Source: Candidatus Thorarchaeota archaeon
GTDB lineage: Archaea > Asgardarchaeota > Thorarchaeia > Thorarchaeales > Thorarchaeaceae
Length of the DNA: 19,441 nt
Assembly: GCA_048882385.1 (NCBI GenBank)
Contig: JBHLRQ010000057.1
Location: 1 to 19,441, forward strand
Reading direction: 5' to 3'
Both the position numbers and the translations under genes were made by a program. Shown piece by piece: positions 753 through 17,880 of the stretch (positions are counted from its first letter, which is position 1; each line of letters begins with the position of its first letter). The notes beneath the pieces were generated by a model. That model worked only from the letters and a program-made list of their open reading frames with translations, made no database searches and was not told where the DNA came from.

Positions 753-956
753 CTAATCAACTCCTATATGGTGACTGAAGAATCGTCATGTAATGTCTGT
801 AAAGAACGACTTCATGGAGCAATTGGTTGGGAGGTTCAAAGCTTCTCTCTCCACAACCTGCGAGAGCCATGAATTCCACATACTTTTCAAACTATTGTTA
901 AGAGCAATCACATAGGACGCAGATAATGAGTCTAAGGACTAGCCATGGTAGAACTA

Positions 957-1057
957 CGGGTAATTACCCAACTGGAACTTTAGAGCACCTTTCCTCTTTT
1001 GCAACAGTCAATCTTGAATTTGAGCGAACTCTCTGTTCCATCTAAAAGGCAACAATC
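957..1057 (+). repeat. Degenerate intergenic repeat copy A (extended right part)
   Basis: cgggTAAt as in copy B, then agagcacctttcctcttttgcaacagtcaa and gaactctctgttccatctaaaaggcaaca, which matches 18628-18732. Confidence 0.65.
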
Positions 1058-1134
1058 TCTTCATTATGCTCATTTGTCCCTTAGATTTATGAAACATGTT
1101 GTAATAATTTGCCAAAGAAACAGGGTGATTAATA

Positions 1135-2268: not shown

Positions 2269-2340
2269 GTCAATAGAGGAATCATTGTTGAAGAAATCTA
2301 AGCATTGAAGTCCGAGTAGGAGTAGATATTTTGACCTCTC

Positions 2341-2428
2341 CCTAGATGATTATGAAGTAAAGGTTGACAGGGTCGGGTAATCAGGGACCTTTCCCTAGCC
2401 GTTCACTGTTGAGCACCCTTTCATTTTC
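2341..2428 (+). repeat. Degenerate intergenic repeat copy B (reference copy, 88 bp)
   Basis: cctagatgattatgaagtaaaggttgacagggtcgggTAAtcagggacctttccctagccgttcactGTTGAGCaccctttcattttc, with an internal AGGGA/TCCCT hairpin. Confidence 0.85.
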
Positions 2429-2477
2429 GTTAAATATATGGAGAATAGCTTCGATGCATTAGGATTTGATTTGTGAT

Positions 2478-2495
2478 TCATGTCTAATGACGGTA
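2478..2495. promoter_or_regulatory. Partial match to the Bat-HTH-associated palindrome upstream of the DGC gene
   Basis: tcatgtctaATGACGGTA: the right half-site matches the consensus TACNGTCATATGACNGTA. Confidence 0.4.
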
Positions 2496-2560
2496 TTGTA
2501 GTATAGCAAATTCGACATAGCTACATATTAGCACAGTTTGAAGACATAGAAAATGTGAGT

Positions 2561-3034
2561 ATGCTTATGAGAGAACCGAATACAGATTTTACTCTAGAGG
2601 TAACAGGAACTAGTAGGCGGTGTCCCATTGGAGAGAAAACTGGTGCTCAATATATGTCGGAGAAGAAAACACCTATTCTCGCCTGTGCAGGAGCATGTAT
2701 CCGAGGGGAAATCGCTCGATTAGCCGCGAACATAGTTTCGAAAAACGACGGGTTTCGACATGCATGTCATGGCGAAGTACTCACTGTCCCGGGGTCGGGA
2801 TTTGATAATTGGGTAGCAGCAGCAGACAAAGTCATACTAATCGACGGATGTTTCATGCGATGTTGGGGACGGATTTTAGAAAATCTGATTCCTGAAGAGA
2901 AGTTGGTTCAATTCGATGCTTTATCTCATTATAAGAAGTATACGAATCTATTCGACATTGATGCTGTCCCTGAATCTGAAAGGAATCAAGTAGCACAAAG
3001 TGTGGCTAGTTGGGTACTTGCCAGTATGGAATAG
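2561..3034 (+). CDS. DGC-domain putative zinc-binding protein
   Basis: CAGACIRGEIARLAA, ACHG and IDGCFMRC motifs. The start could be 2555, 2561 or 2567. Confidence 0.85.
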   Translation: MLMREPNTDFTLEVTGTSRRCPIGEKTGAQYMSEKKTPILACAGACIRGEIARLAANIVSKNDGFRHACHGEVLTVPGSGFDNWVAAADKVILIDGCFMRCWGRILENLIPEEKLVQFDALSHYKKYTNLFDIDAVPESERNQVAQSVASWVLASME

Positions 3035-3040
3035 GATGCC

Positions 3041-3065
3041 CATTGCTGAGTCCCTGCCATTTTCC
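3041..3065 (+). repeat. Degenerate repeat copy C (3' motif only)
   Basis: cattgctgagtccctgccattttcc resembles ctgttgagcaccctttcattttc. Confidence 0.45.
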
Positions 3066-3080
3066 TATGGCTGCTATCCA

Positions 3081-3764
3081 TTAATGTGCGCGCCGGAAAA
3101 GCTGGATATATGGTATGAGTGCCGCCACTAACTTTCCTTCCGCTTTCTTCAAATGATCGACAAATGTAGTTCTTGGAACATGCAACCTCTTCGCTATTGT
3201 CTGAACATTCGCTCTTCTTGGAAAACTGAAGTATCCGTGAGAGTACGCGGTGACTAGAGCATCCATTTGCCTATCCGTCAGTTCTGAAAACAAAGTATCT
3301 GCTGTCATCGCTATTGAGCTGATGAACGAACCACTGTACGGTTTCTTCCGTATTATTTCGACATCAAAATGTTCAGTTGCGAGATTCTTCATCAACTTCG
3401 TGATATCTTCATGCTTGAACGCAACTATCCTATAGTATTCCCAACCCTTCTCATAATACACTGGGTTGAATTCGAGGAAGTTCAACTCCTCGAGATAGCG
3501 GCTCACAGATCCAGGTTCTAGACAGGAACATGATTTCGTGACCAAATGTACCCTGTCGCTATCTGATACCTCATTCATGATATTCATGGTTTTCTCCAAA
3601 TCACCCCGAATGCTGGAGTATTCGTCCTGATTCCGAATAACTAACTCTAGGACATCGTGCTCACGATTACACCATTGAAATATCTTCAAAGATGGATGCT
3701 TGCGTGAAATGTTTCCAATTGGACAATCATGACTGACTTTGAATGTGACCTCGAAGAGTGGCAT
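3081..3764 (-). CDS. Bat-type (bacterio-opsin activator, HTH_10) transcription regulator
   Basis: C-terminal LTDRQMDALVTAYSHGYFSFPRRANVQTIAKRLHVPRTTFVDHLKKAEGKL; N-terminal HDCP. Confidence 0.9.
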   Translation of the reverse strand: MPLFEVTFKVSHDCPIGNISRKHPSLKIFQWCNREHDVLELVIRNQDEYSSIRGDLEKTMNIMNEVSDSDRVHLVTKSCSCLEPGSVSRYLEELNFLEFNPVYYEKGWEYYRIVAFKHEDITKLMKNLATEHFDVEIIRKKPYSGSFISSIAMTADTLFSELTDRQMDALVTAYSHGYFSFPRRANVQTIAKRLHVPRTTFVDHLKKAEGKLVAALIPYIQLFRRAH

Positions 3765-3798
3765 ACCCTTTCACTGTTTCAATCCAATATATAGTATT

Positions 3799-3843
3799 AG
3801 CAGTAATATTACGTTTAGATTTAACTACCGTCATATTACGCTA
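3799..3843. promoter_or_regulatory. Tandem palindromic operator-like sites in the divergent promoter
   Basis: agcaGTAATATTACgttt (3799-3816) and TACCGTCATATTACGCTA (3826-3843) resemble 14329-14346. Confidence 0.55.
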
Positions 3844-3887
3844 CAATATTAAACTGAGTTCTGGGTATCTATAATCATGTGATTATC

Positions 3888-4103
3888 ATGGCGTGTGAAA
3901 CAAGTTATGTATCAATAGAACGTAAAGTCACAATTCGAGATGACGAAGAGCCAGTCGATACATCCATCCGTCTGAACAGCGATGGGAACAAGGCTGAACA
4001 GATTAGGGCGTCGCGTGGGAGGATGTACCTTAAACGCAATCGCAATGATCGATACAGGACATCTGGAAGGGCTCTCTTGTTTGCGGCTTCCTTTAACAAA
4101 TAA
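3888..4103 (+). CDS. Small hypothetical protein (71 aa, basic C-terminal half)
   Basis: ATG at 3888, downstream of an AT-rich TATA-like stretch (aatattaaa, about 3845-3853) and divergent from the regulator. No recognisable family. Confidence 0.5.
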   Translation: MACETSYVSIERKVTIRDDEEPVDTSIRLNSDGNKAEQIRASRGRMYLKRNRNDRYRTSGRALLFAASFNK

Positions 4104-4118
4104 TGCGGAAGACATGAA

Positions 4119-4262
4119 ATGCAAGAACTGCTATCTGTATTGCTTTTCCCGCCTCTATTTGTTATTGGATTTTTCAGCGGAATTGCGTCGTTACTACTCG
4201 GTTATAGAGAAGACCTGAGAGTCTTCGCAAGGAGAATTAGAAACAATCGATCAAATGATTGA
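4119..4262 (+). CDS. Small single-pass membrane protein (47 aa), below the ORF-track cutoff
   Basis: MQELLSVLLFPPLFVIGFFSGIASLLLGYREDLRVFARRIRNNRSND*: a hydrophobic helix followed by an Arg-rich tail. It fills the gap between the neighbouring ORFs. Confidence 0.6.
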   Translation: MQELLSVLLFPPLFVIGFFSGIASLLLGYREDLRVFARRIRNNRSND

Positions 4263-4278
4263 GAAGGAGGTGAAACAG

Positions 4279-4506
4279 ATGGGATGCGGAAGTGCAACGA
4301 GAAAGAGAAAATCTAGAGCAACTGTGAGAAATCCTGAGAGAATTGGTCGCGGTACATCAGCTATTCTGATGCCTCGAGTTCCACAGAAATGCTTCAACTG
4401 TGGGGCGAGCATTCACACTGAAAAGGTGAATTGGATTGGCCCAGATAGAATAGAGTGTCCATACTGCGGACAAGCCTTAACGGTTGAATTCGAAAAAGTG
4501 GCTTGA
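4279..4506 (+). CDS. Small zinc-ribbon protein
   Basis: Strong RBS AGGAGGTGA before ATG 4279. CFNC...CPYC pairs and a basic N-terminus. Confidence 0.8.
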   Translation: MGCGSATRKRKSRATVRNPERIGRGTSAILMPRVPQKCFNCGASIHTEKVNWIGPDRIECPYCGQALTVEFEKVA

Positions 4507-4526
4507 ATGGGTGCAGAGGCAGCGGT

Positions 4527-4593
4527 GAGATAGAGTATTTAGGGAAATACCCTTCTCACATTGCTGAACCTCTTTCCATTTTTCAATCATCAA
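4527..4593 (+). repeat. Degenerate repeat copy D
   Basis: gagatagagtatttAGGGaaataCCCTtctcacattgctgaacctctttccatttttcaatcatcaa. Confidence 0.65.
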
Positions 4594-4604
4594 TGTTTTT
4601 GATA

Positions 4605-5183
4605 CTATCTGGAGTTTGCAGTATCACCTTTCGGAAGAATTCCATATCGCTGAACAAATTCACTCTTGATGATGTCCATAATAGCTACATCGTCTCGTTT
4701 TCCATTAATGTATGCTCCTTCTCTAAGAAATCCCAATTTCTGAAATCCAATCTTCTCATAGAAACTGATCGCATGTTGATTGAATTTGTAGACAAAGAGA
4801 TAGACATTATGTAATCCCAAAATGTTGAAAGTAAAATCGAGCAGAACCAACATAGCATCTTTTCCGTAGCCCTTTCCTCTATTGTTTTTGTCAAAGATTA
4901 CCAAGTTATCAATCATACCAGTACCACTGATCCAGTTGACGTTAGATACATCTATGAATCCCACTAGTTTCCGTGTTGTTTTGTCTTCAATGCCGAATGT
5001 GAAGACATATCGACCCGCAAAGCCTTCATTCCTCGATGAAATAAAATCCTGAATCTCCTTGTGTGTCTTGGGAAATGGATTTGGGAAATATTGCCTGACT
5101 TGATATTCATTCCAGTGTTCAAGTATGATGTCTGCGTCTTCAAGCTCTAAACGTCTTAGCTTTACTGTTTCCCCTTGGTACAT
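4605..5183 (-). CDS. GNAT acetyltransferase, RimJ/RimL family
   Basis: Likely start at ATG 5183 (MYQGETVKLRRLE). Motifs NRGKGYGKDAM, LGLHNVYL and NQHAISFYEKIGFQKLG. Confidence 0.9.
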   Translation of the reverse strand: MYQGETVKLRRLELEDADIILEHWNEYQVRQYFPNPFPKTHKEIQDFISSRNEGFAGRYVFTFGIEDKTTRKLVGFIDVSNVNWISGTGMIDNLVIFDKNNRGKGYGKDAMLVLLDFTFNILGLHNVYLFVYKFNQHAISFYEKIGFQKLGFLREGAYINGKRDDVAIMDIIKSEFVQRYGILPKGDTANSR

Positions 5184-5320
5184 TAGAATCAGATAGGCGT
5201 ACTTCTCTCTAATTTTAACTATATGGAAGTGCGCTGGTTTATGCAATCGATAAGAAAGGTCATCGCAATTAGAAATTCATCTCAGAATAACTTCAGAACT
5301 TAGTATCTTCCATCATTTAT

Positions 5321-5408
5321 CCTAGATGGGCTTTTGGTGTAGACTGAAAGAGTCCGGTGAACAGGGAACTTTCCTACTATCATCAGTTTAGCTACCCTTT
5401 TCATTTTC
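5321..5408 (+). repeat. Degenerate repeat copy E (88 bp, colinear with copy B)
   Basis: cctagatg...agactgaaagagtccggTGAacagggaactttcct...gtttagctacccttttcattttc. About 55/88 ungapped identity to copy B by hand count, with the stop at the same offset. Confidence 0.85.
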
Positions 5409-5497
5409 CATTTGACATAGTATTGAGAAGATATATCACGATTCATCATACCTACCAAATGAAGTGAATCCTAGTTTCATTTCACTGGCGAACAAGA

Positions 5498-7429
5498 TTG
5501 ACATATGTCTACATGAAAGCTCTGGAATCAGCTCCAGAACGCTATGACAAAGGAATTAGATGGCTTGGTTGGCTAAAGTTAGATAGTATTCGTAACCATA
5601 TTGCTGACATAATTGAAGCTGAAGCAGAAAATGTACTTGAGATAGGAGCTGGTACTGGCACTCAAGCTCTTCTACTTGCAAAACGGGGTTTAGAAGTTAC
5701 AGGTTTAGACCACTCTTCTGGTATGCTGGCAATTGCTCAAGGAAAGATGGACTCTCTCGAAAAGGAGGAAGGTGAAACAGAGATTGGATCTAGAGTTACA
5801 TTATTGCACAAAGCCGCAGTGGAGCTAGATGAGTTCCCTCATGACTCATTTGATGCGGTCACATCAACACTTGTCCTATCTGAACTTGATCCATCTGAAC
5901 AACGATATGTGCTATCTCATGCGTTTCAGATAATAAAACCTGGAGGCATATTAGTACTAGCTGATGAAGTGATACCACGCCGGGCTTCGACAAGACTGGC
6001 ACATTCGTTGATTTCTGCTCCGCTGAAACTTATCACCTACGTGGTGACTCAGACTTCAACAAAGGCTGTTCGAGATTTAGATAGCATAATTGAGGAAGCA
6101 GGATTCGAAATCGAATCGATTGATAATTATCAGTTAGACTCTTTCCAGCTAATCATTGCAAGAAAACCAAAGGACTCTGATACAGGAGGAGAACCCATCC
6201 CGTCAATTAAGTTCAAACCTATCAAACCCCCATCCGGGGGATTACTTTCCACTTTTTGGGAAACAGCTGCAAGAATGATTGGACATTCTACACAGATTGG
6301 TCTCATCCCTGTGGGTGAACCGACCCCAGATAGCCCCGTACTCTGTACCTGCAATTTCCACTTAACAGTCCGCCGCCTCTATAAACTCTTGAAAACCTCG
6401 AAAATCAACTCCTGGATCCTTGTGGCTCCAACAGATGGCATTAACGTCTGGTGTGCGTCTTGTGGGAAAAACTTCAATGCAGGATCTGTCATTACAGCAA
6501 TCAAAATTTCAAGCCTTGAGAAGTACGTTAACCACCGTAGAATAATACTACCACAACTGGGAGCCTCTGGAATTGACCCAAAGAAAGTAAGTCAGATCAC
6601 AGGATGGCATTGTATCTGGGGTCCAGTGCATATGGAGGACATTCCTAGTTTTCTATCTGATTTCCCAAAATCAGTCCGAAACAAAACAGAGAAGCAGAGA
6701 AAAGTTCGATTTGGTATTGTCAACCGATTGGAGATGGCATCTGCATTATTCTTTCCAATATTGCTGTTATTGATGTTGCCTCTGTCCTTGATTCTCCTTT
6801 TCCTGAATCAAGAGGTTTGGATCATTCCCATACTTTTTACTATGCTGAGCCAGATTTACGGTCTCTTTCTGTTTTGGCCACTAATACCATCTAGATTGGG
6901 CACAAGCAAGACAGCAATCTGGTCATTAGTAATCATTGCTCTGATTTCTTTGGGTTCATGGTATACTACTGATATTCTTGAATTTCCTTATCCAAATGAA
7001 CCATCTTTCCAAGACTTTCTTGCTATTCTCAACTACTGGCCAGTATTGGTTTTTGCGCTCATTCTAATGGCTATCCTCATATATGATGCAGATGGGATGA
7101 CTCCTACACTTCGGTCGTCATTAGCAGCACGAAGTTGGAACAAAGGAAATACAGAGATACAAGAAAGATGGGGGAGTTCCTATTCCCTACTACCCTATGG
7201 AGAGATTTCAGCCATTTTGGATTCATGTAATGGTTGTGGAGTTTGTGTTGATGTTTGTCCTATGTTGATCCCTTCTGTGAATGAAGAAAGCAGAAAGGTC
7301 CAGTTAAGAACACCAGAAAGATGTGTTAATTGTCGAGCCTGTGTAAACCGATGTCCTGAGAACGCTCTATTCCTGAAGCCTGAAACAGAAGCTGCAAAGC
7401 AAGCCCTTCTCAAATTACAACTGAAATGA
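5498..7429 (+). CDS. Fusion of class I SAM methyltransferase, HgcA/CdhD-like corrinoid domain, multi-pass membrane region and 2x[4Fe-4S] ferredoxin (HgcAB-like)
   Basis: VLEIGAGTG SAM motif. Corrinoid-domain motifs PTPDSPVLCTCNFHLT, TDGINVWCASCGK and HRRIILPQLGASG. About 4 hydrophobic helices. Ferredoxin motifs CNGCGVCVDVCP and CVNCRACVNRCP. Confidence 0.85.
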   Translation: MTYVYMKALESAPERYDKGIRWLGWLKLDSIRNHIADIIEAEAENVLEIGAGTGTQALLLAKRGLEVTGLDHSSGMLAIAQGKMDSLEKEEGETEIGSRVTLLHKAAVELDEFPHDSFDAVTSTLVLSELDPSEQRYVLSHAFQIIKPGGILVLADEVIPRRASTRLAHSLISAPLKLITYVVTQTSTKAVRDLDSIIEEAGFEIESIDNYQLDSFQLIIARKPKDSDTGGEPIPSIKFKPIKPPSGGLLSTFWETAARMIGHSTQIGLIPVGEPTPDSPVLCTCNFHLTVRRLYKLLKTSKINSWILVAPTDGINVWCASCGKNFNAGSVITAIKISSLEKYVNHRRIILPQLGASGIDPKKVSQITGWHCIWGPVHMEDIPSFLSDFPKSVRNKTEKQRKVRFGIVNRLEMASALFFPILLLLMLPLSLILLFLNQEVWIIPILFTMLSQIYGLFLFWPLIPSRLGTSKTAIWSLVIIALISLGSWYTTDILEFPYPNEPSFQDFLAILNYWPVLVFALILMAILIYDADGMTPTLRSSLAARSWNKGNTEIQERWGSSYSLLPYGEISAILDSCNGCGVCVDVCPMLIPSVNEESRKVQLRTPERCVNCRACVNRCPENALFLKPETEAAKQALLKLQLK

Positions 7430-7465
7430 ACCAGTTTCTGAAGAAATCATTAGACATCAGCACTT

Positions 7466-7520
7466 GAAGGAGTAGAGGATGACGGGATTTGATGTACAGG
7501 GAATTACGAAACCTTCCTAG
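7466..7520 (+). repeat. Degenerate repeat copy F (left part and hairpin)
   Basis: gaaggagtagaggatgacgggattTGAtgtacagggaa...ttcctag aligns with gaagtaaaggttgacagggtcgggtaatcaggga. Confidence 0.65.
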
Positions 7521-7595
7521 AATCTTAACATGTTCATAGATGACGCCTAACACAAGGATTATATGAACCATGACGAAGATTATTAACAATAGTTA

Positions 7596-8045
7596 ATGGT
7601 TGTGACGAAACCAATGCCAGCACAAATCAGATTTTCTCAGGTTATTGATCGGCCAGTGGCCAAAGTGTTTCACTTCGTAGCTGAACAACACGTTCGCAAC
7701 CACCCACGCTGGGATCCAGACATAGAGCTATGGCTGGAATCAAACAGTCCAATCGGAGTTGGTACAATTATTCGCAGACGCAACAGTCGTAGTGGCACTC
7801 CTGTTGAGGGGACCATGGAGGTGGTGGAATTCAAGCCCAACCAAGTCATGGGAACGCTTATCCGTGATGGCCCAGCCGAGATGCGAGGGCGCATTACGTT
7901 CGAGGTTGTAAATGAGTCCCAAACTAATGTGACAACAGTCATTGATATTCCCGATATGGATGAGTCTATGGACACGAGTTTCATAACAAGCCGCTTGGAG
8001 CGGAGCGGCCGCAATATGAAGCAACTCATCGAGTCTGAAACCTAA
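7596..8045 (+). CDS. SRPBCC (START/polyketide cyclase-like) family protein
   Basis: IDRPVAKVFHFVA...HPRWDP, GVGT and EVVEFKPNQ pattern. Confidence 0.85.
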   Translation: MVVTKPMPAQIRFSQVIDRPVAKVFHFVAEQHVRNHPRWDPDIELWLESNSPIGVGTIIRRRNSRSGTPVEGTMEVVEFKPNQVMGTLIRDGPAEMRGRITFEVVNESQTNVTTVIDIPDMDESMDTSFITSRLERSGRNMKQLIESET

Positions 8046-8069
8046 GAATCGTTTGAAGAGTGTTGACAG

Positions 8070-8456
8070 ATGACTGACCCTATTGTATTCATCATCCGCA
8101 ATCGAGTGAAGGAAGGGATGCTCGACGATTTCAAGAATCACTATAAGAAAAGCATCCCACTGACAGAGAAAAGTAAGCAGGGTACAATTATCCAGCTTGC
8201 ATACATCAACGACGATGCTACTAATGTGGATATCATTCGCGTCTTTCCGAATGCAGAGGCATTAGATCAACAATTACAAGGAGCTGATCGACGAACAAAA
8301 ATAACCTACAAATTCATTGAACCAACCAGCATCGAGATTTATGGTACGCCCAACAATTTTGCCATCGAGATGATGAAGAAGATCGCAGGATTGGAGATTG
8401 ATGTGAGTGTCAAATCTCAATTCATTGGTGGCTTCATTCATTCCAATCACGAGTAA
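8070..8456 (+). CDS. Hypothetical protein, probable dimeric alpha-beta barrel (ABM-like)
   Basis: VKEGMLDDFK...GTIIQLAYIN...IEIYGTP pattern; apparently co-transcribed with the SRPBCC gene. Confidence 0.65.
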   Translation: MTDPIVFIIRNRVKEGMLDDFKNHYKKSIPLTEKSKQGTIIQLAYINDDATNVDIIRVFPNAEALDQQLQGADRRTKITYKFIEPTSIEIYGTPNNFAIEMMKKIAGLEIDVSVKSQFIGGFIHSNHE

Positions 8457-8500
8457 TCAGGGATATCTCTCCTACTCACTCTATTGAACACCCTATCCAC
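8451..8500 (+). repeat. Degenerate repeat copy G (overlaps the stop of the upstream gene)
   Basis: gagTAAtcagggatatctctcctactcactctattgaacaccctatcca; gtaatcaggga is identical to copy B. Confidence 0.7.
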
Positions 8501-9220
8501 TCACAAGATTTTGAAAATGACAAATAGCAAAAATATGCCATGCAGATCTGAAAACATGTGTGCGAACCAAGCTATGTAGACATTCCTGCACTTCATGAAT
8601 ATTAATCCATAAACAATGCCCCCAGCTGCTATCGCTACCAAATCAATCAGGATAATGAACGGGTCATCCGGTGTCCAGTGAATTGCAGCAAACAGGAATG
8701 ATGCAATAATCAAAGATGTTCTTTTGTTAAAGAACCAACTGAGTCTTTCCTGAACTAGTCCTCGAAACACGACTTCTTCGAGCATGGTCGTGAGTGGTAT
8801 TGAGAATAGCAAAACAAAGAACATTCCAAAACTCATGTCAATCGACCAAGCACGATGAGTTCTGATATACTGGAGATAGGCTGGAAAGAGCATTAGACTC
8901 CCCAAGATTATGATACTCTGGATAACTATAACACCTAGAAAAATCAGACTTGCATTCATATGGAGATCATCAACAAGGCTTTCCTGTTTTAGACCCAAAT
9001 CTTCCTTTCTTCGACTGCGTCTTACTGAATCCACTAGAATGTAGGCAATTGGAATTCCAAATGCTACTCCCCCTACAAGGAAAGTTAGAACAAAAAGAAA
9101 CAGTATCACAATCGAGAGTTCGACCAAGAGCAACGGTGTTTGCTCCTGTGAAGGTTTGTTGTCTGATTGGTCACTGATGCTTCTAAGAGCAATACTTGGT
9201 TCATCAAGTTCTCTCAACAA
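8501..9220 (-). CDS. CPBP (Abi/CAAX protease-like) intramembrane metalloprotease
   Basis: EEVVFRG, FAAIH and AHMFSD motifs with many TM segments. The start is uncertain. Confidence 0.9.
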   Translation of the reverse strand: MLRELDEPSIALRSISDQSDNKPSQEQTPLLLVELSIVILFLFVLTFLVGGVAFGIPIAYILVDSVRRSRRKEDLGLKQESLVDDLHMNASLIFLGVIVIQSIIILGSLMLFPAYLQYIRTHRAWSIDMSFGMFFVLLFSIPLTTMLEEVVFRGLVQERLSWFFNKRTSLIIASFLFAAIHWTPDDPFIILIDLVAIAAGGIVYGLIFMKCRNVYIAWFAHMFSDLHGIFLLFVIFKIL

Positions 9221-9273
9221 TCCAAATCCCGTCCGGAATTAGGTACAAACATTAGAAATCATGATTGGGAAGT

Positions 9274-9501
9274 CTATGTTGGCCAATCAAACTCATCAAT
9301 ATCGTCAAGTACCTGTTCACCTTCTGGACAGCATATTTCTGCATCAACTTGTGAACAACAGTCACTTTTTTCATATTCTGAGAATCGGTTCATTTCCATC
9401 TGACCCAAGAAATCAGACAAGCTTAGTCCATACGATTCTAGTATCTCTTCAATCTGTTTCATGATCTTAGCATAATCAATTGCATGAAGTCGGTTTGCCA
9501 T
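9274..9501 (-). CDS. Small acidic protein with two vicinal Cys pairs (75 aa)
   Basis: ATG at 9501 (MANRLHAIDY...), containing SDCCSQVDAEICCPEG. Confidence 0.6.
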   Translation of the reverse strand: MANRLHAIDYAKIMKQIEEILESYGLSLSDFLGQMEMNRFSEYEKSDCCSQVDAEICCPEGEQVLDDIDEFDWPT

Positions 9502-9556
9502 AATTATCCCTCGACGATTCTCAATCCAAGAGAACCGTACTATTATAGAGAGAATG

Positions 9557-9566
9557 TTTATATAAA
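9557..9566. promoter_or_regulatory. Palindromic TATA-like box between divergent genes
   Basis: TTTATATAAA is a perfect palindrome lying between the starts at 9501 (-) and 9606 (+). Confidence 0.45.
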
Positions 9567-9605
9567 TCCTTTTCCTCACAAAGAGCAAGCATTAATGAGA
9601 GCATA

Positions 9606-10289
9606 ATGTGTGGTGACTCGATGAAAACTCCTGCTTACAAGGATACAATAGGAGAAAGACCGGCTCGAATCAAATTGCTTGACAGAGATCAATATGCATT
9701 AATGAATAATCATATTGAGATTATTCGTTCTCTTTGCTGTAAGTTTCTGACAGTCAAGGAGATTCATAGACAATTTCTGGTTAATCATGATAAGCCAACT
9801 TACAGTAGGGCATTGAAGACTCTTTATCGTGATTTAGACAATCTGGAAAAGTCAGAATTGGTAAAGGTTGTGGGTTATAGGAAGTACAAGGGCAGTCGTC
9901 AAATAGAGAAATTATACAGTTGCACTGCAGATGTCTTCTTTCCCCAAGAGAGTGCAGAAATACAGAAGTGGTGGCTCTCAGGTGCAGGACAAAACTATCT
10001 TGTGCAGTTGTCCAGCTTAATCTCAGAGTTCTTTCAGGTTTCTACAGCAGAAAAATCTCAGATTAAGGAACTATTGGAGAGATTCTTTGACCTCTGGGAA
10101 AAGACTGTAAGACAGTTGTTCAAGAGATGTGAAAACTCAGAGCAATTGACATCGATTATCAGTGAAATCGATATAAGCTGGATGGATGACACAACTCGAT
10201 TCATCGGGATGATGGGGGCATTTTTCACCGACCCTATGTTATTCAGGGACTTAATGGTCCTTATTGATAGCGGTAGTAGTAATAGATGA
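9606..10289 (+). CDS. Winged-helix DNA-binding domain protein (putative regulator)
   Basis: LTVKEIH...KTLYRDLDNLEKSELVKVVGYR...EKLYS is a wHTH pattern, followed by a helical C-domain. Confidence 0.7.
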   Translation: MCGDSMKTPAYKDTIGERPARIKLLDRDQYALMNNHIEIIRSLCCKFLTVKEIHRQFLVNHDKPTYSRALKTLYRDLDNLEKSELVKVVGYRKYKGSRQIEKLYSCTADVFFPQESAEIQKWWLSGAGQNYLVQLSSLISEFFQVSTAEKSQIKELLERFFDLWEKTVRQLFKRCENSEQLTSIISEIDISWMDDTTRFIGMMGAFFTDPMLFRDLMVLIDSGSSNR

Positions 10290-10313
10290 TTTACAAAATA
10301 AGAGTTGACAAAT

Positions 10314-10820
10314 ATGAAAAAACGTTGGAACAAAGAGAGAATAATCGAGAGTATCCATATTGAACGACGAAGACTAGAGAAGAACCTCACATCTCTCTCT
10401 GATACAGACATGATGGAGCCTGGCGTAGTCGGAGAGTGGTCCGTGAAGGACATATTGGCTCATCTCTTCGATTGGGAACAGCGATTCCTTGGATGGTATG
10501 AAGCTGGACTAAGAGGTGAGGTTCCAGAAACCCCTGCTCCTGGACTCAAGTGGAGCCAACTACGTATTCTGAATCAAAGAATTTTCGAAAAGTACCAAGA
10601 CAGAGCACTATCGGACATCAAGAAGGAATTTCAATCCTCTTTTGAAAAGGTACTTGAAACTGTAAATGACATTCCTGAAAAGGATCTCTTTAAGATTGGT
10701 AGATATCAATGGACTGGCAAGGATACTATTGGTGGATTCATACTCGCTAACACTGCCAATCATTATCGATGGGCCAAGAGTAGAATTCGTAGCTGGATGA
10801 AACGAACTGCAAGACTCTAA
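10314..10820 (+). CDS. ClbS/DfsB (DinB-like) four-helix bundle protein
   Basis: WSVKDILAHLFDWE, PAPGLKW and NTANHYRWA motifs. Confidence 0.85.
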   Translation: MKKRWNKERIIESIHIERRRLEKNLTSLSDTDMMEPGVVGEWSVKDILAHLFDWEQRFLGWYEAGLRGEVPETPAPGLKWSQLRILNQRIFEKYQDRALSDIKKEFQSSFEKVLETVNDIPEKDLFKIGRYQWTGKDTIGGFILANTANHYRWAKSRIRSWMKRTARL

Positions 10821-10854
10821 TGCAGTCTTTCTAACTCAACACTTCAATATACAA

Positions 10855-10923
10855 GAAGTAAAGACTGAAGGAGTTGGTTGAAAAGGGAACTACTCTCCCT
10901 CTGTTGAGCACCGTTTCATTTTT
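10855..10923 (+). repeat. Degenerate repeat copy H
   Basis: gaagtaaagactgaaggagttggtTGAaaAGGGAactactcTCCCTctGTTGAGCaccgtttcatttt. An ACTCAAC (RYYYAAC) lies upstream at 10834-10840. Confidence 0.85.
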
Positions 10924-11084
10924 ACACTCATCATCTCTCAAAACACAATTCTATCTTGATTTACACTCGTATCTAATTCTCGATGGGAATTACAATGAAA
11001 TTCTAGAATTCATGGAAAATGAATGGCTGAAACCGTATTTCTTATATCACTGACACAAAGGCTTGGTTCAAAACAAGTTGGTAG

Positions 11085-12251
11085 ATGCTTGTGAGCAAGA
11101 GGATTGAGATGACTGAGGAAATTGTTGTAGGAGAGAAGATAGTTGTTAATTCTGAAGTTCTTGGAGAAGATAGGATAATTCTTGTAAGATTTCCCAAGAA
11201 CTATGAAGTTTCCAACAAGAAATATCCTGTCCTCTTCCTGTTGGATGCAGAGTTTTTCTTCTACCAAGCTATATCGGCAGTTGAGTTCTTATCAGAATGT
11301 GGCTACATTAGCCCCAAACCGATTCCAGAGATGATTGTAGTTGGAATTGTTAATATAGATCGAAACCGGGATTATACACCAACTTTTGCTCCTAAGCAAC
11401 GAGAGGTTCTTGAATTTCCAACAAGTGGAAAAGCTGAGAAATTCATTGAATTTCTGAAAATGGAGCTCATTCCTCTAGTGGAAGAAAAATATCGGACACA
11501 TCCGTTTAGGATTTTGGCGGGCTGGTCACTAGGAGGATTGCTGACCGTTCATAGCTTCATGTATCATCCTGATCTCTTCTCTGCCTATTTAGCTATTAGT
11601 CCAAGTCTGTGGTGGGATGAAGATCTCTATGTAGAGCGAACTAAAACTCTGCTTTCTAAAGGAAAAATATCCGATAAACCGCTAATCGTAACCATTGGAT
11701 CTGAAGAAGGAGGAGATATAGGACGAAGTGTTAGGGATGGTTTTATTCCACTCTTTACAAATCACTCGGAGAAGAGTTCCGGATTCAAGGCTGTAGAGCT
11801 TCCTCTTGAGGATCACACTTATGGTCCATACAAAGCATTGTACCAAGGAATGAGGGCACTTTATTCCGACGACATAATTCCACAAGAAATCATTGACAAG
11901 GGATTAGATGCCGTAAATTCATTTTATGAGAATCTTTCAAAGAAATATGGGTACGAGGTCCTAATTCCAGAATCAACTTATTCTCAAGTTGCAAGTAGCA
12001 TGTATAGGCAGGGAAATAAATCCCAGGCCTTAGAGGTTGCGAAAACTTACGTACAAAAATATCCTGAATCATCATATGCTCATTATTATGTTGGAACTAG
12101 ATATCTAAGAGCACAACTTATTGATTTGGCTGTAGAATATGTAGAAAAAGCTCTAGAAATTGAGTCAAATCAGTTTGTCCCTGATTCCGAAAAAATATTC
12201 GCTTATAATTTGAGAATGCAAGAATTAAGAGACATTAGTTCTACTAGATGA
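11085..12251 (+). CDS. Alpha/beta hydrolase (IroE-like esterase) with C-terminal TPR region
   Basis: YPVLFLLDA, RNRDYTP, GWSLGG nucleophile elbow, SPSLWW and EDH, plus a TPR-like tail. The start may be 11109. Confidence 0.9.
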   Translation: MLVSKRIEMTEEIVVGEKIVVNSEVLGEDRIILVRFPKNYEVSNKKYPVLFLLDAEFFFYQAISAVEFLSECGYISPKPIPEMIVVGIVNIDRNRDYTPTFAPKQREVLEFPTSGKAEKFIEFLKMELIPLVEEKYRTHPFRILAGWSLGGLLTVHSFMYHPDLFSAYLAISPSLWWDEDLYVERTKTLLSKGKISDKPLIVTIGSEEGGDIGRSVRDGFIPLFTNHSEKSSGFKAVELPLEDHTYGPYKALYQGMRALYSDDIIPQEIIDKGLDAVNSFYENLSKKYGYEVLIPESTYSQVASSMYRQGNKSQALEVAKTYVQKYPESSYAHYYVGTRYLRAQLIDLAVEYVEKALEIESNQFVPDSEKIFAYNLRMQELRDISSTR

Positions 12252-12270
12252 TTTGATTGAGTGCCACCTG

Positions 12271-12312
12271 CACTTCAAAAAGATGTTAGACTGAACGCAA
12301 AGTGAGGTAATG
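12271..12312 (+). repeat. Degenerate repeat copy (left part only)
   Basis: cacttcaa...tagactgaacgcaaagtgaggTAAt resembles copies E and H. ctagatgatt at 12244-12253 also matches copy B. Confidence 0.45.
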
Positions 12313-12345
12313 TCTTAGTGTCATCAATTAATTCTCTTATCGTAC

Positions 12346-12936
12346 CTACCGATCATTCAATCCCTTTCCATTGAGAATTTGCTGTGTATATTTCTCAACC
12401 CTTGACATCCGAGTTTTGGATTGTTTGGGTGCAGAAAAATAAAGAAGGTATGCTCTTTGCCGCCCTGGTGTCAGTGCATCAAAAGCAGTTTTCAAGGCAG
12501 GTATTTCATCTAATTTAGAGCGAAATTCTTCAGGAATTGTGTATTCTGTGGTCTTCTTGAAATCCACTTTCAAACCAGCTTTTTCCACTTCAATGGCATC
12601 GTGAATATAGGCTTTCAAGATGGGTTCCATCTCAACTATCTCTCGAGCATTGGTGAACCTAATCTGGCGCGTCGCTTGCGTATTATCTGTTTGTGATATT
12701 AGAATACTATTGGCATCATTTAGCAAGGCACCTTTGAAAAACAAAAGCGCACAGTATTCTTTGAAACCATGTATCAAAACTATGTTACTCTTCTGAAACG
12801 TGTAACAAGGTTTCCCCCACTTGAATTCCTCGGTCAACCCACTGTCAAGAACAATCTTTCTCAGTTTCTTAAATTCATCCTGCCACTTTTTGGCTTTACT
12901 AAGAAATGCATCAACCTTAGGATTCATTTTATTCAT
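12346..12936 (-). CDS. ydeI: YdeI/OmpD-associated family protein (DUF1801 + OmdA-like)
   Basis: EEFKWGKPCY, GFKEYCALLFFKGALL and LTPGRQRAYLLYFSAPKQSKTR. Confidence 0.9.
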   Translation of the reverse strand: MNKMNPKVDAFLSKAKKWQDEFKKLRKIVLDSGLTEEFKWGKPCYTFQKSNIVLIHGFKEYCALLFFKGALLNDANSILISQTDNTQATRQIRFTNAREIVEMEPILKAYIHDAIEVEKAGLKVDFKKTTEYTIPEEFRSKLDEIPALKTAFDALTPGRQRAYLLYFSAPKQSKTRMSRVEKYTQQILNGKGLNDR

Positions 12937-13013
12937 TTATTGACCTTCTGAAATATGATGAACTCATATCCGCTTACAGTTTCTTTTTCTTATTTAACAA
13001 GATATTCGTAGCG

Positions 13014-13088
13014 GAAGCTGAGGATGGAAGAGGATGAGAATCATTCTCATCTTGCATCAATGATTTTCTGATATCGAGCACTGTCTCT
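13014..13088 (+). repeat. Degenerate repeat copy I with a perfect palindrome
   Basis: gaagctgaggatggaagaggaTGA; palindrome GATGAGAATcATTCTCATC (13033-13051); later atcgagcactgtctc. Confidence 0.5.
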
Positions 13089-13138
13089 AGTCAGTACTAA
13101 ACTTATGCCAAATGTAGCTTCTAGAAATCCATTATAAC

Positions 13139-13525
13139 TTGGAGAATAGAAAGATGATTGAAGAACTGGAAAAGGTTCGAGAAACAGTCAATACCTATCT
13201 GGAGGCAGTGAAACACAGGGACTGGAATAAGTTTCAAGAGTCATGGCATCCTGAGGCAAGGATGAGTTATGTAAAAGATGGTGAGCCTCAGTCTGTTCCT
13301 CGATCGTTTTGGGAAGACTGGTGCAAGAAACCGATAGAAACACAAGAAAAGAGGACCAGTACGATACCATCGATTGATGTGACTGGAAACATCGCAGCCG
13401 CAAAAGCAATTACACTTCGTGAAACACCTGATGAGAGAATGATATTCATAGACTACTTGACTCTTCTTCAAGATGACAATAAATGGCAAATCATTAGCAA
13501 GTCATACACTACTAAATTGATTTGA
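13139..13525 (+). CDS. NTF2-like (putative lumazine-binding) family protein
   Basis: WHPEARM, IDVTGNIAAAK and DYLTLLQDDNKWQIISK. The start may be 13154. Confidence 0.85.
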   Translation: MENRKMIEELEKVRETVNTYLEAVKHRDWNKFQESWHPEARMSYVKDGEPQSVPRSFWEDWCKKPIETQEKRTSTIPSIDVTGNIAAAKAITLRETPDERMIFIDYLTLLQDDNKWQIISKSYTTKLI

Positions 13526-13553
13526 GAGAATTGACAGAACCCAGTTTTCCAAA

Positions 13554-14294
13554 TCAGGTTTCTTCTGAAATGCTTTCCTCAAGAGGGGCCGGATGGCTCC
13601 CTCTCTGTCCGGAAAAATGATGCCATGTATGAAGATGGGGGATAAGTGCCTGGATTATTTTGTTTTCTGCTTTCCGTAAGTGTTCTTGAAAGGTTGTTCT
13701 TCTGACTCCAACACTGTCTGATATAGTCTTGACATCAGCATCTCTGGGTATTCTGTAGTACCCATGAGAATGAGCAGTGAGAACAGCATCTGTCTGCAAT
13801 TCTGTTAAACCTTCAAACAATGTTTCTGTTCGTACTGTCATTGATCCTGACGCTGAGAATCCATTGAATGGGATTTTGCGAAGAATCCATGGCATGTAGC
13901 TGCACTCCCGAAACTCTTCTATCAGCTTGGTGATATCTTGCTGTCTGAAGGCAAGCACTCGGTGATATTCCCATCCCCCGTAGTAACTAACTGGTGCTAG
14001 GTGTAGAATACCAAGCTCAGACGAACAATCTTCAATGACTCTGTCTACTCCGCAAGGAATTGCTTTTGAAATGAGGTGGTTCTGATACTCATCTCCAACA
14101 TGATCAATGACACCATCAAGTGCACTTGCACTTTCTATCATGTCTGGTTTTTCAGTTCCATCTCGAGAAAACACCTCTATAATCTCGTGATTTTTAATAA
14201 TCCACTTGTGGATGCCTGTCAGAGGATATTTCGTTGAGAATTCTGCTAATCTGCAATTGTGCCGTATCTTGAATTCCAGTTCTAATATTGCCAT
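13554..14294 (-). CDS. Bat-type (HTH_10) transcription regulator, paralogue of 3081-3764
   Basis: LTELQTDAVLTAHSHGYYRIPRDADVKTISDSVGVRRTTFQEHLRKAENKI; shares GWEY.R..AF with the paralogue. Confidence 0.9.
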   Translation of the reverse strand: MAILELEFKIRHNCRLAEFSTKYPLTGIHKWIIKNHEIIEVFSRDGTEKPDMIESASALDGVIDHVGDEYQNHLISKAIPCGVDRVIEDCSSELGILHLAPVSYYGGWEYHRVLAFRQQDITKLIEEFRECSYMPWILRKIPFNGFSASGSMTVRTETLFEGLTELQTDAVLTAHSHGYYRIPRDADVKTISDSVGVRRTTFQEHLRKAENKIIQALIPHLHTWHHFSGQRGSHPAPLEESISEET

Positions 14295-14328
14295 GAAATG
14301 ACCCCAGTGAATTACATAATGTATTGAG

Positions 14329-14346
14329 TACTGCCATATGACAGTA
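14329..14346. promoter_or_regulatory. Palindromic operator-like site
   Basis: TACTGCCATATGACAGTA has 8 of 9 palindromic pairs and lies 35 nt upstream of the regulator start. Confidence 0.6.
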
Positions 14347-14409
14347 TCCCCAAAATAACTAATGAAGCAAAGAATACAAGCAAATAGAGCAGATGAACCT
14401 CTAACTGTT

Positions 14410-14478
14410 AAAAGGTTGAAGCCGACGGGATCAGTTAGTCAGAGAGTTTTCTCATCACTCAACCTGTTGAGCATTTTG
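14410..14478 (+). repeat. Degenerate repeat copy J
   Basis: aaaaggttgaagccgacgggatcagtTAGtcagagagttttctcatcactcaacctGTTGAGCatttt. Confidence 0.75.
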
Positions 14479-14484
14479 TAAAGA

Positions 14485-16860: not shown

Positions 16861-16960
16861 TCCTGATTTCTTTCAACGCTCGTCCATATATCTCATGTCA
16901 ATCTGTCTGTTGTCTCTGTTAAAGAATTTGGATTCATAATGGATATTCTAAATTGGCAAT

Positions 16961-17032
16961 AGATAGAGTCTTTCAAGTTCCTCTCACTGTTGAGTGCGCA
17001 TTCCCTTTTGTATTAGTCCGATTATTTGAGCA
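16961..17032 (+). repeat. Degenerate repeat copy K
   Basis: agatagagt (shared with D), then ctctcactGTTGAGTgcgcattcccttttg and atttgagc (shared with A). Confidence 0.65.
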
Positions 17033-17149
17033 GAAGTAATCCTATCCATCTCAACATGTTTTTGATTCTACGAATATGGTCACATTGTGCCCAGAATTTT
17101 CAAAATATGTGACCAGTCAAGAATATTCTGAACTCAAAGGTGAGATAAA

Positions 17150-17767: not shown

Positions 17768-17880
17768 CAGAAAACGCCTAATTCCACTTTTCTGAGTTGA
17801 AAGAAGCATGGGCTTATGATGACTGGGAACGCGATGCAATCGCTAAATAGTCCCTATTCTAAACTAGAAAATTGTACTGA

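What the first reader, a model, noticed from the sequence alone, without database searches (positions are those of the whole stretch)
2341..14478. The repeat's left half reads like a displaced protein C-terminus with a synonymously varying stop codon
Seen, reading in frame on +: B gives LDDYEVKVDRVG-TAA, H gives QEVKTEGVG-TGA, E gives LDGLLV*TERVR-TGA, J gives KVEADGIS-TAG, F gives GVEDDGI-TGA, I gives EAEDGRG-TGA, and the 12288 copy gives *TERKVR-TAA. The stop is usually followed closely by the hairpin. Several differences fall at third codon positions (GTC/GTT, GGG/GGT, AGG/AGA, GAC/GAA), and all three stop codons are used. Established: elements integrating into the 3' end of a gene bring a replacement 3' end and displace the old one. 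Inference: each copy is a formerly functional 3' end plus terminator of one target gene, or of the mobiliser gene itself. Repeated integration would push copies downstream, so the array may record insertion order.
Basis: partly seen in the sequence, partly recalled or inferred. Interest (0 to 1): 0.8.

Follow-up and report, generated by a model that had tools for sequence, protein, structure and literature searches.

The report
Cassette array punctuated by 16S trailers
The repeats are not leftovers of a protein's tail but copies of the short stretch that follows the 16S ribosomal RNA gene, and in a group of Asgard archaea they separate swappable accessory genes in an array that starts right after that gene.

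Summary
The repeats are real: 9 of 9 model matches in the window with E<=0.01 lie on the + strand, and 14 copies in the genome sit on only 5 contigs. The protein reading fails. The open frames are 24-26 codons long, no long ORF ends at the proposed stop, and a hand tally of substitutions gives 34/11/34 for codon positions 1/2/3.

The organism is a Thorarchaeota (Asgard) MAG. In relatives the array begins 24-27 nt after the 3' end of the 16S rRNA gene, on the same strand. Both halves of the repeat are complementary to the 16S 5' leader. The repeat is therefore the 3' strand of the pre-16S processing stem plus its T-rich end. The window also holds a relic of the 16S 3' end itself (12995-13030) and a trailer copy of another genus's type (about 4516-4590).

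Window modules recur in other species in other orders, with boundaries at the repeats. No tyrosine recombinase lies on any listed array contig, and 20 of 28 genomes of the genus have none.

The target is the 16S rRNA gene, not a protein gene. The recombination mechanism is inferred, not shown.

The parts
981..1002 (+). Remnant of the repeat's right end, at the boundary between the MerB-like module (shared as 4-1011) and the M24 peptidase module (shared from 997).
   Evidence: Direct-repeat family D4; weak nhmmer and R1 matches only; module boundaries.
2342..2430 (+). Copy B, a full trailer copy: left half, small hairpin, right half containing GTTGAGC, then a T-rich end.
   Evidence: R1 77.1 bits, E 1.3e-23; sequence; aligns to the functional trailers of G005 and G017.
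4516..4590 (+). Full trailer copy of a foreign type. It is most like the functional 16S trailer of genus g25 (G067), and it ends the module shared as 3036-4602.
   Evidence: Alignments, about 85% alike by my reading; R1 only weak here (E 0.53); boundary 4602/4603.
5336..5404 (+). Copy E, between the GNAT cassette and the methyltransferase-CdhD-ferredoxin cassette.
   Evidence: R1 45.2 bits; junction alignments.
7471..7505 (+). Copy F, left half only. It breaks right after the 5' arm of the small hairpin.
   Evidence: R1 19.6 bits over 7471-7534. Alignments show that G013 and G002 have a full repeat at this place. A metagenome contig in run X7 continues from 7482 as a full repeat.
8453..8499 (+). 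Right-part copy, at the end of the SRPBCC module (shared as 7530-8493).
   Evidence: R1 E 0.0046; joint 2419->8503 in run X12.
10853..10922 (+). Copy H, a full copy after the DinB/DUF1706 gene.
   Evidence: R1 52 bits, E 9e-16; sequence.
12995..13085 (+). It travels with the DUF1801 module (12347-13061).
   Evidence: Alignment to real 16S ends, about 30 of 34 nt alike by my reading. Real 16S contigs lay on 12995-13028 and run on as 16S on both sides (loose ends). The module and the short stretch recur in many genomes.
14413..14478 (+). Copy J. It lacks 9 nt of the T-rich end and sits directly before the 3' end of the PFL-like gene, which is on the - strand.
   Evidence: R1 46 bits; alignment.
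16950..17007 (+). Copy with the hairpin region deleted, after the PFL-like module (14484-16943).
   Evidence: R1 E 0.0029; alignment.
17880..17902 (+). Right-end remnant between the methyltransferase and FMN-reductase modules.
   Evidence: R1 E 0.01; families D1 and D4; boundaries.
18628..18649 (+). Right-end remnant and last copy, lying before the conserved PP-loop ATPase gene (18734-19441, - strand).
   Evidence: R1 E 0.00043; family D3 at 96%. The PP-loop gene lies 16-29 kb downstream of the 16S or of the array's head-side contig end in 5 species.
1..19441 (+). Interior and distal part of the cassette array: about 14-15 modules of 0.6-3.3 kb carrying accessory genes. These are MerB-like, M24 peptidase, DGC, two HTH_10 regulators, GNAT, methyltransferase-CdhD-ferredoxin, SRPBCC, a CAAX protease, DinB, an esterase, DUF1801, SnoaL-like, PFL-like, a methyltransferase and an FMN reductase. 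By my count 12 genes are on + and 8 on -.
   Evidence: Pfam results; modular matches to 25 of 27 other genomes of the genus. Contig C154 ends with the window's first 77 nt at 100% identity, so it joins on the left.

Best explanation
WHAT IT IS (about 0.9). The repeat is the 3' trailer of the 16S rRNA gene of a Thorarchaeota (Asgard) lineage. It is the strand that pairs with the 5' leader to form the pre-16S processing stem, it carries a small local hairpin, and it ends in a T-rich stretch that probably terminates transcription. The window is the inner and distal part of an array of small accessory-gene cassettes that begins right after the 16S gene. Every cassette junction carries one trailer copy in the orientation of the 16S gene. 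The apparent 'peptide plus stop' is a chance reading of the trailer's inner-helix strand.

HOW IT WORKS (inferred, about 0.5). DNA that carries a copy of the 16S-3'-end/trailer segment recombines with the resident segment. The incoming DNA is probably a circle looped out of another array. This Campbell-type event inserts the cargo and leaves a trailer copy on each side, so the 16S gene keeps a working trailer and older copies move downstream. Recombination between copies then deletes, shuffles and homogenises cassettes. I favour the general homologous-recombination machinery over a dedicated integrase.

SHOWN: the anatomy, the link to the 16S gene, the leader complementarity, the modular exchange, and the foreign trailer types.
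INFERRED: circular intermediates, the enzyme, and the direction of events.
For: ORGANISM. Records that hold the repeat are titled Candidatus Thorarchaeota or Promethearchaeota (19 of 21 stretches are archaeal MAGs).

LINK TO THE 16S GENE. In 4 of 6 array loci fetched from relatives, the archaeal SSU rRNA gene lies directly upstream of the first copy on the same strand. The gaps are 27 nt in L026 and 24 nt in L028. The other 2 loci stop at contig ends about 700 nt past the last copy.

DISTRIBUTION. Model R1, built only from this genome's array copies, matches 24 of 24 other species of the genus and 0 of 16 genomes of other families. In genus g17 it matches the stretch 30 nt after the 16S gene in 3 of 3 genomes.

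LEADER PAIRING. The leader is complementary to both halves of the trailer in G005 and G017. The outer helix is also found as an inverted repeat at 92%. That helix shows a compensatory change between genera: an A-T pair in g1 and a G-C pair in g25 and g18.

RELICS OF THE 16S 3' END INSIDE ARRAYS. They occur at window 12995-13030, in G067 (39 nt, 92%, 7.65 kb downstream), in G059 (65 nt, 92%, flanking MerA and MerB) and in G048.

COPIES FOLLOW THE GENOME'S OWN TRAILER. G012's copies share its private roughly 45-nt insertion. G017's eight copies are nearly identical to its functional trailer.

FOREIGN TRAILER TYPES. There is a g25-type copy in the window, a g1-type copy in G067's array and g1-type copies in G012.

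MODULAR EXCHANGE. Window modules recur in 25 of 27 other genomes of the genus in other orders, with boundaries at the repeats. G002 lacks the 5412-7504 cassette and has one repeat in its place. Metagenome contigs join 2427 to 4602 at depth 7.6, against 22 to 73 for that run along the window.

NO INTEGRASE. PF00589 and TIGR02249 are not found in this genome. In the genus 20 of 28 genomes have no PF00589 match, and by my comparison 0 of the 20 listed matches lie on a contig that one search lists as holding repeats.
Against: This genome's own 16S gene is not assembled. Adjacency here therefore rests on relatives, on the 77-nt overlap with C154, and on only a 7-nt overlap plus similarity between the start of C154 and a metagenome 16S contig.

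No circular or excised form was seen. The joints come from short contigs of mixed populations and may reflect other strains.

The three left-half copies I inspected (window F; G017 copy 7; G013 after the PFL-like gene) all break at the small hairpin. That hints at a specific cleavage or crossover site rather than homologous exchange.

Cassette boundaries vary: mid-repeat for the methyltransferase cassette, and after the T-rich end for the PFL-like cassette.

For a fold within the repeat itself there is no support. RNAalifold predicts no structure and pair counts do not beat shuffles (89 of 500).

Leader-trailer covariation rests on one pair. I did not identify a bulge-helix-bulge motif.

How a new gene first acquires a trailer copy is unexplained.
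Confidence: 0.7

Rival explanations
1. An unknown dedicated site-specific system (recombinase or nuclease) uses the 16S trailer as its attachment site. It cuts in or near the small hairpin and moves integrase-less cassettes in trans, as an integron does.
For: The three left-half copies I inspected all end right after the 5' arm of the hairpin. All copies on a contig share one orientation. Cassettes are small and carry no recombinase of their own.
Against: No candidate enzyme was found on any array contig annotated. Tyrosine recombinases are missing from 20 of 28 genomes of the genus. Shared-cassette boundaries fall at different places in the repeat. Serine recombinases, HUH enzymes and other families were not searched.
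Confidence: 0.25
2. The repeats are integron attC sites, and the window is a cluster of attC sites lacking an integrase (CALIN), as reported for Asgard archaea.
For: The locus is an array of mostly single-gene cassettes with directly oriented repeats of about 75 nt. The right end matches GTTRRRY in 10 of 13 copies (my reading). The cargo is typical of integron cassettes: GNAT, DinB, SnoaL-like and DUF1801. Ghaly et al. 2022 (PMC9668308; abstract and sections 6, 7, 8 and 14 read) report integrons enriched in Asgard genomes, most of them CALINs.
Against: No RYYYAAC core occurs in the left 25 nt of any of the 13 copies (my reading). Bottom strands fold no better than shuffles in 9 of 11 copies (z from +0.83 to -2.70). 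No IntI (TIGR02249) is present. By my count genes run 12 on + and 8 on -. The repeat has a different, demonstrable origin as the 16S trailer.
Confidence: 0.07
3. The copies are kept for a function in each cassette, such as transcription termination or an RNA-processing signal borrowed from the rRNA. They mark gene boundaries rather than record integration.
For: Every full copy ends in a T-rich stretch. The left half holds stop codons in all three frames, and two upstream ORFs end in it. Within-genome copies are kept nearly identical in G017.
Against: Copies keep one orientation while 8 of 20 genes run the other way. Many copies are truncated or decayed. Relics of the 16S gene's own 3' end have no such use. 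No RNA data are available.
Confidence: 0.1
4. One reading: each copy is the displaced C-terminal coding end plus terminator of a protein gene.
For: Short in-frame readings ending in a stop exist in B and H. By my reading of A2, 8 of 13 copies have a stop at the aligned position.
Against: See the observation check. The frames are 24-26 codons long. No long ORF ends at that stop in 0 of 13 copies. The hand tally is 34/11/34. There are in-frame stops in 3 of 13 rows and non-triplet gaps in 3 of 13. The functional G017 trailer has no stop at that position.
Confidence: 0.02
5. A miniature transposable element (MITE-like) spread through intergenic DNA.
For: It is short, non-coding, repeated and intergenic.
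Against: All 14 copies lie on 5 contigs and all share one orientation on each contig. They are tied to one locus in every genome examined. I saw no terminal inverted repeats or target duplications in the alignments.
Confidence: 0.02

Closest known systems
Integron cassette arrays and CALINs, including the archaeal integrons of Ghaly et al. 2022, PMC9668308
   Same: Both are arrays of small, mostly single-gene accessory cassettes separated by directly oriented repeats of about 60-130 nt next to a fixed anchor. In both, repeat types differ by lineage of origin and cassettes are shared between species.
   Different: The repeat is the 16S rRNA trailer. There is no RYYYAAC left core, no supported attC fold and no IntI. 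Genes run in both orientations. The anchor is an rRNA gene, not intI/attI.
Integrative elements and genomic islands that insert into the 3' end of tRNA or tmRNA genes, with tandem accretion (recalled general knowledge)
   Same: Direct repeats equal to the 3' end of an RNA gene flank the inserted DNA. The gene stays intact at one end, and successive insertions give arrays.
   Different: The target is the 16S rRNA 3' end and trailer. The units are 0.6-3 kb without an integrase. Most genomes of the genus have no tyrosine recombinase at all.
Archaeal pre-rRNA processing stems: leader-trailer helix, bulge-helix-bulge cleavage and circular pre-16S (search listing and abstracts only, e.g. PMC7038931)
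   Same: The first copy behaves as the 3' strand of such a stem: two blocks are complementary to the leader, with one compensatory change.
   Different: Multiplication of the trailer strand downstream of the gene is not part of that literature as far as my searches show. I did not identify the bulge-helix-bulge motif here.
rDNA-specific insertion elements of eukaryotes (R1/R2) and repeated regulatory cassettes of T4-type phages (PeSL); both recalled, not checked
   Same: In the first, ribosomal RNA genes serve as a safe landing site. In the second, short repeated intergenic modules promote gene shuffling.
   Different: There is no homology and no reverse transcriptase or phage context here. 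The likeness is one of logic only.

Membership tests
Integron attC site / CALIN | R' core GTTRRRY at the 3' end of the site | tested here: met
   10 of 13 aligned copies read GTTGAGC. The 3 others read GTAGAGC, GATAATC and GTTTAGC (my reading of A2).
Integron attC site / CALIN | R'' core RYYYAAC at the 5' end, inverse to R' | tested here: not met
   0 of 13 copies have it in the left 25 nt. The partner stretch reads GCTGAC, which pairs with the right end only with a bulge and a G-T pair (my reading).
Integron attC site / CALIN | Stable imperfect hairpin of the bottom strand with extrahelical bases | tested here: inconclusive
   Single-strand DNA folds of 11 bottom strands gave z from +0.83 to -2.70, with 2 of 11 below -2. 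My proposed pairing forms in 74% of cells against 37-51% when slid, but 89 of 500 shuffles reach it. The attC covariance model was not available.
Integron attC site / CALIN | Integron integrase (IntI) in the genome or next to the array | tested here: not met
   TIGR02249 and PF00589 gave no match in this 95%-complete genome. None lies on listed array contigs of the genus.
Integrative island at the 3' end of an RNA gene | Direct repeats that copy the 3' end or flank of the target gene bound the inserted DNA | tested here: met
   Trailer copies sit at every junction. 16S 3'-end relics occur in the window and in G067, G059 and G048.
Integrative island at the 3' end of an RNA gene | Intact target gene at the head of the array | tested here: met
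   Full-length SSU rRNA lies directly before the first copy in L025, L026 and L028, and a cut one in L029. This is not testable in this genome, whose 16S is unassembled.
Integrative island at the 3' end of an RNA gene | Element-encoded integrase beside an att site | tested here: not met
   No recombinase domain was found in any ORF scanned on C57, C154, C226, C227, C40, L026, L056, L065 or L070.
Archaeal pre-16S processing stem (3' strand) | Trailer complementary to the 5' leader across the gene | tested here: met
   Two blocks are complementary in G005 and G017: 12 nt, and about 20 of 24 nt by my reading. The outer block is also seen in G067 and G048 and as an inverted repeat at 92%.
Archaeal pre-16S processing stem (3' strand) | Compensatory changes that keep the helix | tested here: met
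   One pair of the outer helix is A-T in genus g1 and G-C in g25 and g18. G017's inner-helix differences are all G-U compatible (my reading). The sample is small.
Archaeal pre-16S processing stem (3' strand) | Bulge-helix-bulge motif cut by the splicing endonuclease | tested here: inconclusive
   A 4-bp helix flanked by small loops exists in the inner block, but it is not a canonical 3-4-3 motif by my reading. The joined leader and trailer could not be folded (length limit; no joining of sequences).
   Hand tally 34/11/34 on A2. There are 3 rows with in-frame stops and 3 rows with 1-2 nt gaps.
MITE | Dispersed copies in both orientations with terminal inverted repeats | tested here: not met
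   The 14 copies lie on 5 contigs with one orientation per contig. They are tied to one locus in relatives.

The most novel reading that the evidence does not exclude
Thorarchaeia may possess a previously undescribed gene-capture platform that needs no integron integrase. Its attachment site would be the pre-16S rRNA processing-stem strand, so that the most conserved gene of the cell serves as a universal landing pad for cassettes exchanged between species and genera.

Long-term accretion at this site may be what has pushed the 16S and 23S genes 59-69 kb apart while keeping their order and strand. These arrays may also account for part of the 'integron' signal reported as enriched in Asgard archaea.
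Probability: 0.35. Interest if true: 0.9.

Novelty: new variant of a known kind. Interest (0 to 1): 0.8.

Why it matters
It would be a hotspot of gene gain and loss in the closest prokaryotic relatives of eukaryotes, built on the flank of the 16S rRNA gene rather than on a tRNA gene or an integron.

It gives a concrete reason why 16S genes of these MAGs sit at contig ends and are often missing. In one search, 6 of 13 fetched loci ran off their contig within 3.3 kb of the 16S end.

It offers trailer type as a natural tag for the donor lineage of a cassette.

It carries adaptive cargo. Mercury-resistance genes lie between trailer copies in G059, and a MerB-like gene is in the window.

It also calls for a re-check of attC calls in Asgard genomes.

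It makes one open question testable: can arrays of exchangeable cassettes be maintained without a dedicated recombinase?

Tried and rejected
RNA FAMILIES. Rfam on the window at E<=1 gave no match. ARAGORN found no tRNA.

STRUCTURE WITHIN THE REPEAT. RNAalifold on 14 copies predicted no consensus structure. My own stem model for the repeat folding on itself had 74% of cells paired but no covariation beyond shuffles. I dropped the idea that the repeat is mainly a self-folding hairpin.

INTEGRON READING. I considered it first, because of the GTTGAGC end and the cassette-like cargo, and rejected membership (see membership test).

VIRAL OR PLASMID attP. Two exact 19-nt right-end motifs gave 0 matches in viral contigs. 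This is weak, because the search is for exact matches only.

CANDIDATE RECOMBINASE. The conserved gene at the window's right end is a PP-loop ATPase, not a recombinase.

LITERATURE. I ran six searches: and 93 and 94. They found no paper linking Thorarchaeota or Asgard cassette arrays to the 16S flank. Ghaly et al. 2022 has 0 occurrences of '16S', 'rRNA' or 'Thor' in its main text. Its data S1 and S3 could bear on whether these arrays were called attC, but supplements are closed and I did not see them.

EXPRESSION. No RNA holder was listed among the sequencing runs, so nothing can be said about transcription.

READS. Some joints are explained by repeat cross-mapping, not circles. An example is 2421->1, which is the C154 repeat lying before window position 1.

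DECAY WITH DISTANCE. There is no monotonic trend in G017. In this genome and in G005 only the last few copies are weaker, and R1 was built from this genome's own copies.

NOT DONE. I did not make a formal breakpoint survey, a codon-position statistic by script, an attC covariance-model run, searches for serine, HUH or other recombinase families, or a metagenome-contig scan.

Full report
THE OBSERVATION.
The window is a whole contig (C57) of a 3.70 Mb, 256-contig MAG that is 95% complete. A repeat of about 75 nt is real. nhmmer, iterated from three seed copies, finds 14 significant copies in the genome. They lie on only five contigs (C57, C154, C226, C227, C40) and share one orientation on each contig. 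A sequence-only model built from 13 of them (R1) gives 9 matches with E<=0.01 in the window, all on the + strand.

THE PROTEIN READING FAILS.
- The frames open 24 and 26 codons after a stop.
- None of the 13 aligned copies has an ORF of 50-60 aa or more ending at the proposed stop. Two ORFs end at a TAG of the repeat in another frame.
- My hand tally on alignment A2 gives 34, 11 and 34 differences at codon positions 1, 2 and 3.
- Three rows have in-frame stops, three have 1-2 nt gaps at the stop, and only 8 of 13 have a stop there (hand counts because the script machine was lost).
- Rfam and tRNA scans of the window found nothing.

THE ORGANISM AND THE CARGO.
Pfam shows archaeal HTH_10 regulators and a run of small accessory enzymes. 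None is a recombinase. An exact 19-nt motif of the repeat occurs in 21 stretches of public genomes. Nineteen of them are archaeal MAGs, titled Candidatus Thorarchaeota or Promethearchaeota or labelled uncultured archaeon.

THE LINK TO THE 16S GENE.
R1 matches 24 of 24 other species of the genus, clustered and co-oriented, and 0 of 16 genomes of other families of the phylum. I fetched six array loci. In four of them the archaeal SSU rRNA gene lies directly upstream of the first copy on the same strand. The gaps are 27 nt in L026 and 24 nt in L028. The other two loci stop at contig ends about 700 nt beyond the last copy. This genome's own 16S gene is not assembled. C154 ends with the window's first 77 nt at 100% identity, so it joins on the left. 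The start of C154 looks like the beginning of a trailer. It overlaps by 7 nt the loose end of a metagenome 16S contig. That link is weak.

THE REPEAT IS THE 16S TRAILER.
- Aligning the 5' leader with the reverse complement of the trailer in G005 and G017 shows two complementary blocks. The outer block (12 nt) falls in the repeat's right half. The inner block (about 20 of 24 nt with one gap) falls in the left half, which is the very stretch read as a peptide.
- The outer block also appears as an inverted repeat at 92%.
- In genera g25 and g18 one pair of this helix has changed on both sides, from A-T to G-C.
- R1 was built without any 16S-adjacent sequence. Even so, it matches the stretch 30 nt after the 16S gene in 3 of 3 genomes of genus g17, which have only one or two copies.
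- The trailer is therefore ancestral and the arrays are expansions of it.

RELICS OF THE 16S 3' END.
Real 16S contigs from two runs lay on it and continue as 16S on both sides. Similar relics lie 7.65 kb downstream of the 16S gene in G067 (39 nt, 92%), 5.3 kb downstream in G059 (65 nt, 92%) and 9.9 kb downstream in G048. The G059 interval holds a mercuric reductase and an alkylmercury lyase. I examined nine loci downstream of the 16S gene in other genera. Four have trailer copies (G067, G063, G048, G059) and five do not (G052, G060, G025, and the short G054 and G050). Four further loci were under 1 kb and were not examined.

CASSETTE BEHAVIOUR.
- The window matches 25 of 27 other genomes of the genus as discrete modules, in other orders, with ends at the repeats.
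- G002 keeps the order MerB-like, DGC, HTH_10 module, GNAT, SRPBCC, DinB. It lacks the M24 peptidase and the methyltransferase-CdhD cassettes. In place of the latter it has a single repeat. G013 has that cassette with other neighbours.
- Shared sequence begins inside the upstream repeat for that cassette. For the PFL-like cassette it begins just after the T-rich end. In both cases it runs 15-35 nt into the downstream repeat.
- Contigs of public sediment metagenomes show other junctions at repeats. One example is 2427 joined to 4602 at depth 7.6, where the run's depth along the window is 22 to 73.

TRAILER TYPES.
G012's trailer has a private insertion of about 45 nt. Nine of its array copies share the insertion, and its array also holds copies of the type found in this genome. 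G017's eight copies are almost identical to its working trailer, whatever their distance from it. The window holds a full copy of the g25 type at about 4516-4590. G067 (g25) holds a copy of the g1 type. Cassettes have therefore moved between genera and kept the donor's trailer. Within a genome, copies are also homogenised.

MECHANISM.
No tyrosine recombinase or integron integrase is found in this genome. In the genus, 20 of 28 genomes have none. By my comparison, none of the 20 listed matches lies on a contig that one search lists as holding repeats (21 matches were not listed). No viral contig holds either of two exact motifs.

I infer Campbell-type recombination within the 16S-end/trailer homology. 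It is probably carried out by the general recombination machinery, with loop-out circles as carriers. I put this at about 0.5. Against it, the three left-half copies I inspected all break at the small hairpin. That keeps open an unknown site-specific enzyme, at about 0.25.

Integron membership fails on the left core, the fold, the integrase and gene orientation. Only the right end fits.

WHAT IS KNOWN.
Ghaly et al. 2022 (abstract and sections 6, 7, 8 and 14 read) report archaeal integrons, most of them CALINs, enriched in Asgard genomes. Their main text does not mention 16S or rRNA. I could not see their supplementary lists. Six literature searches found nothing on cassette arrays at the 16S flank: and 93 and 94.

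VERDICT.
The protein reading is wrong. The idea of displaced gene ends is right, with the 16S rRNA gene as the target. The system looks like a new variant of integration at an RNA gene combined with integron-like cassette arrays.

Noticed in passing
G017:C205 (16S 137705-139206 -, 23S 65200-68309 -); G052:C2 (16S 61808-63345 -, 23S 34-2965 -): In both genomes where the two genes share a contig, the 23S lies 59-69 kb downstream of the 16S on the same strand. It looks as if an operon had been pried apart. G052 shows no trailer copies in the first 12 kb.
   Followed up: partly
genus g1, 28 genomes: 20 of 28 genomes, this one included, have no match to the tyrosine recombinase family at all, so not even a Xer-type enzyme was detected. 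These are MAGs, so absence is not proven.
   Followed up: partly
L070 (G059:C2:123650-135650) 256-5517: A mercuric reductase with a heavy-metal domain and an alkylmercury lyase sit between two copies of the 16S-end/trailer segment. The window's first gene (3-752, - strand) is also MerB-like.
   Followed up: partly
window 2352-2380 and aligned copies: The majority form of the repeat's left half has stop codons in all three frames (TAA, TAG, TGA), then a further TRA. Two upstream ORFs (L001 5767..6057 and L002 812..1483) end at the TAG.
   Followed up: partly
L028 3900-4250; L025 560-870; L026 15210-15560 (- strand): The 300-350 nt upstream of the 16S gene are strongly conserved between three species, far beyond the two helix blocks. 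The stretch may hold the promoter or another RNA element.
   Followed up: no
G057:C2:589938-592348; G014:C73:13812-16104: These 16S matches span 2.3-2.4 kb for a 1478-position model, which suggests insertions such as introns in the 16S gene.
   Followed up: no
window 18734-19441 (- strand); L001 3766-4473: A PP-loop ATPase gene (QueC-like N-terminus) marks the distal side of the array in five species. It has a 73%-identical copy inside C154, where the ORFs are fragmented.
   Followed up: partly
L065 (G048:C9:15390-27390) 359-7544: The 10-kb insert between trailer copies holds a 1693-aa ORF with no Pfam match and a 580-aa protein with a TnpB/Cas12f-like domain.
   Followed up: no
L004 (G000:C40) 604-3336 (- strand): Directly after this contig's single repeat copy lies a 910-aa STAND-type NTPase (DUF4062, NB-ARC/NACHT, TPR). 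It could be a defence gene.
   Followed up: no
window 3081-3764 and 13554-14294 (both - strand): Two paralogous HTH_10 / HVO_A0563_N regulators lie in separate modules of the array.
   Followed up: no
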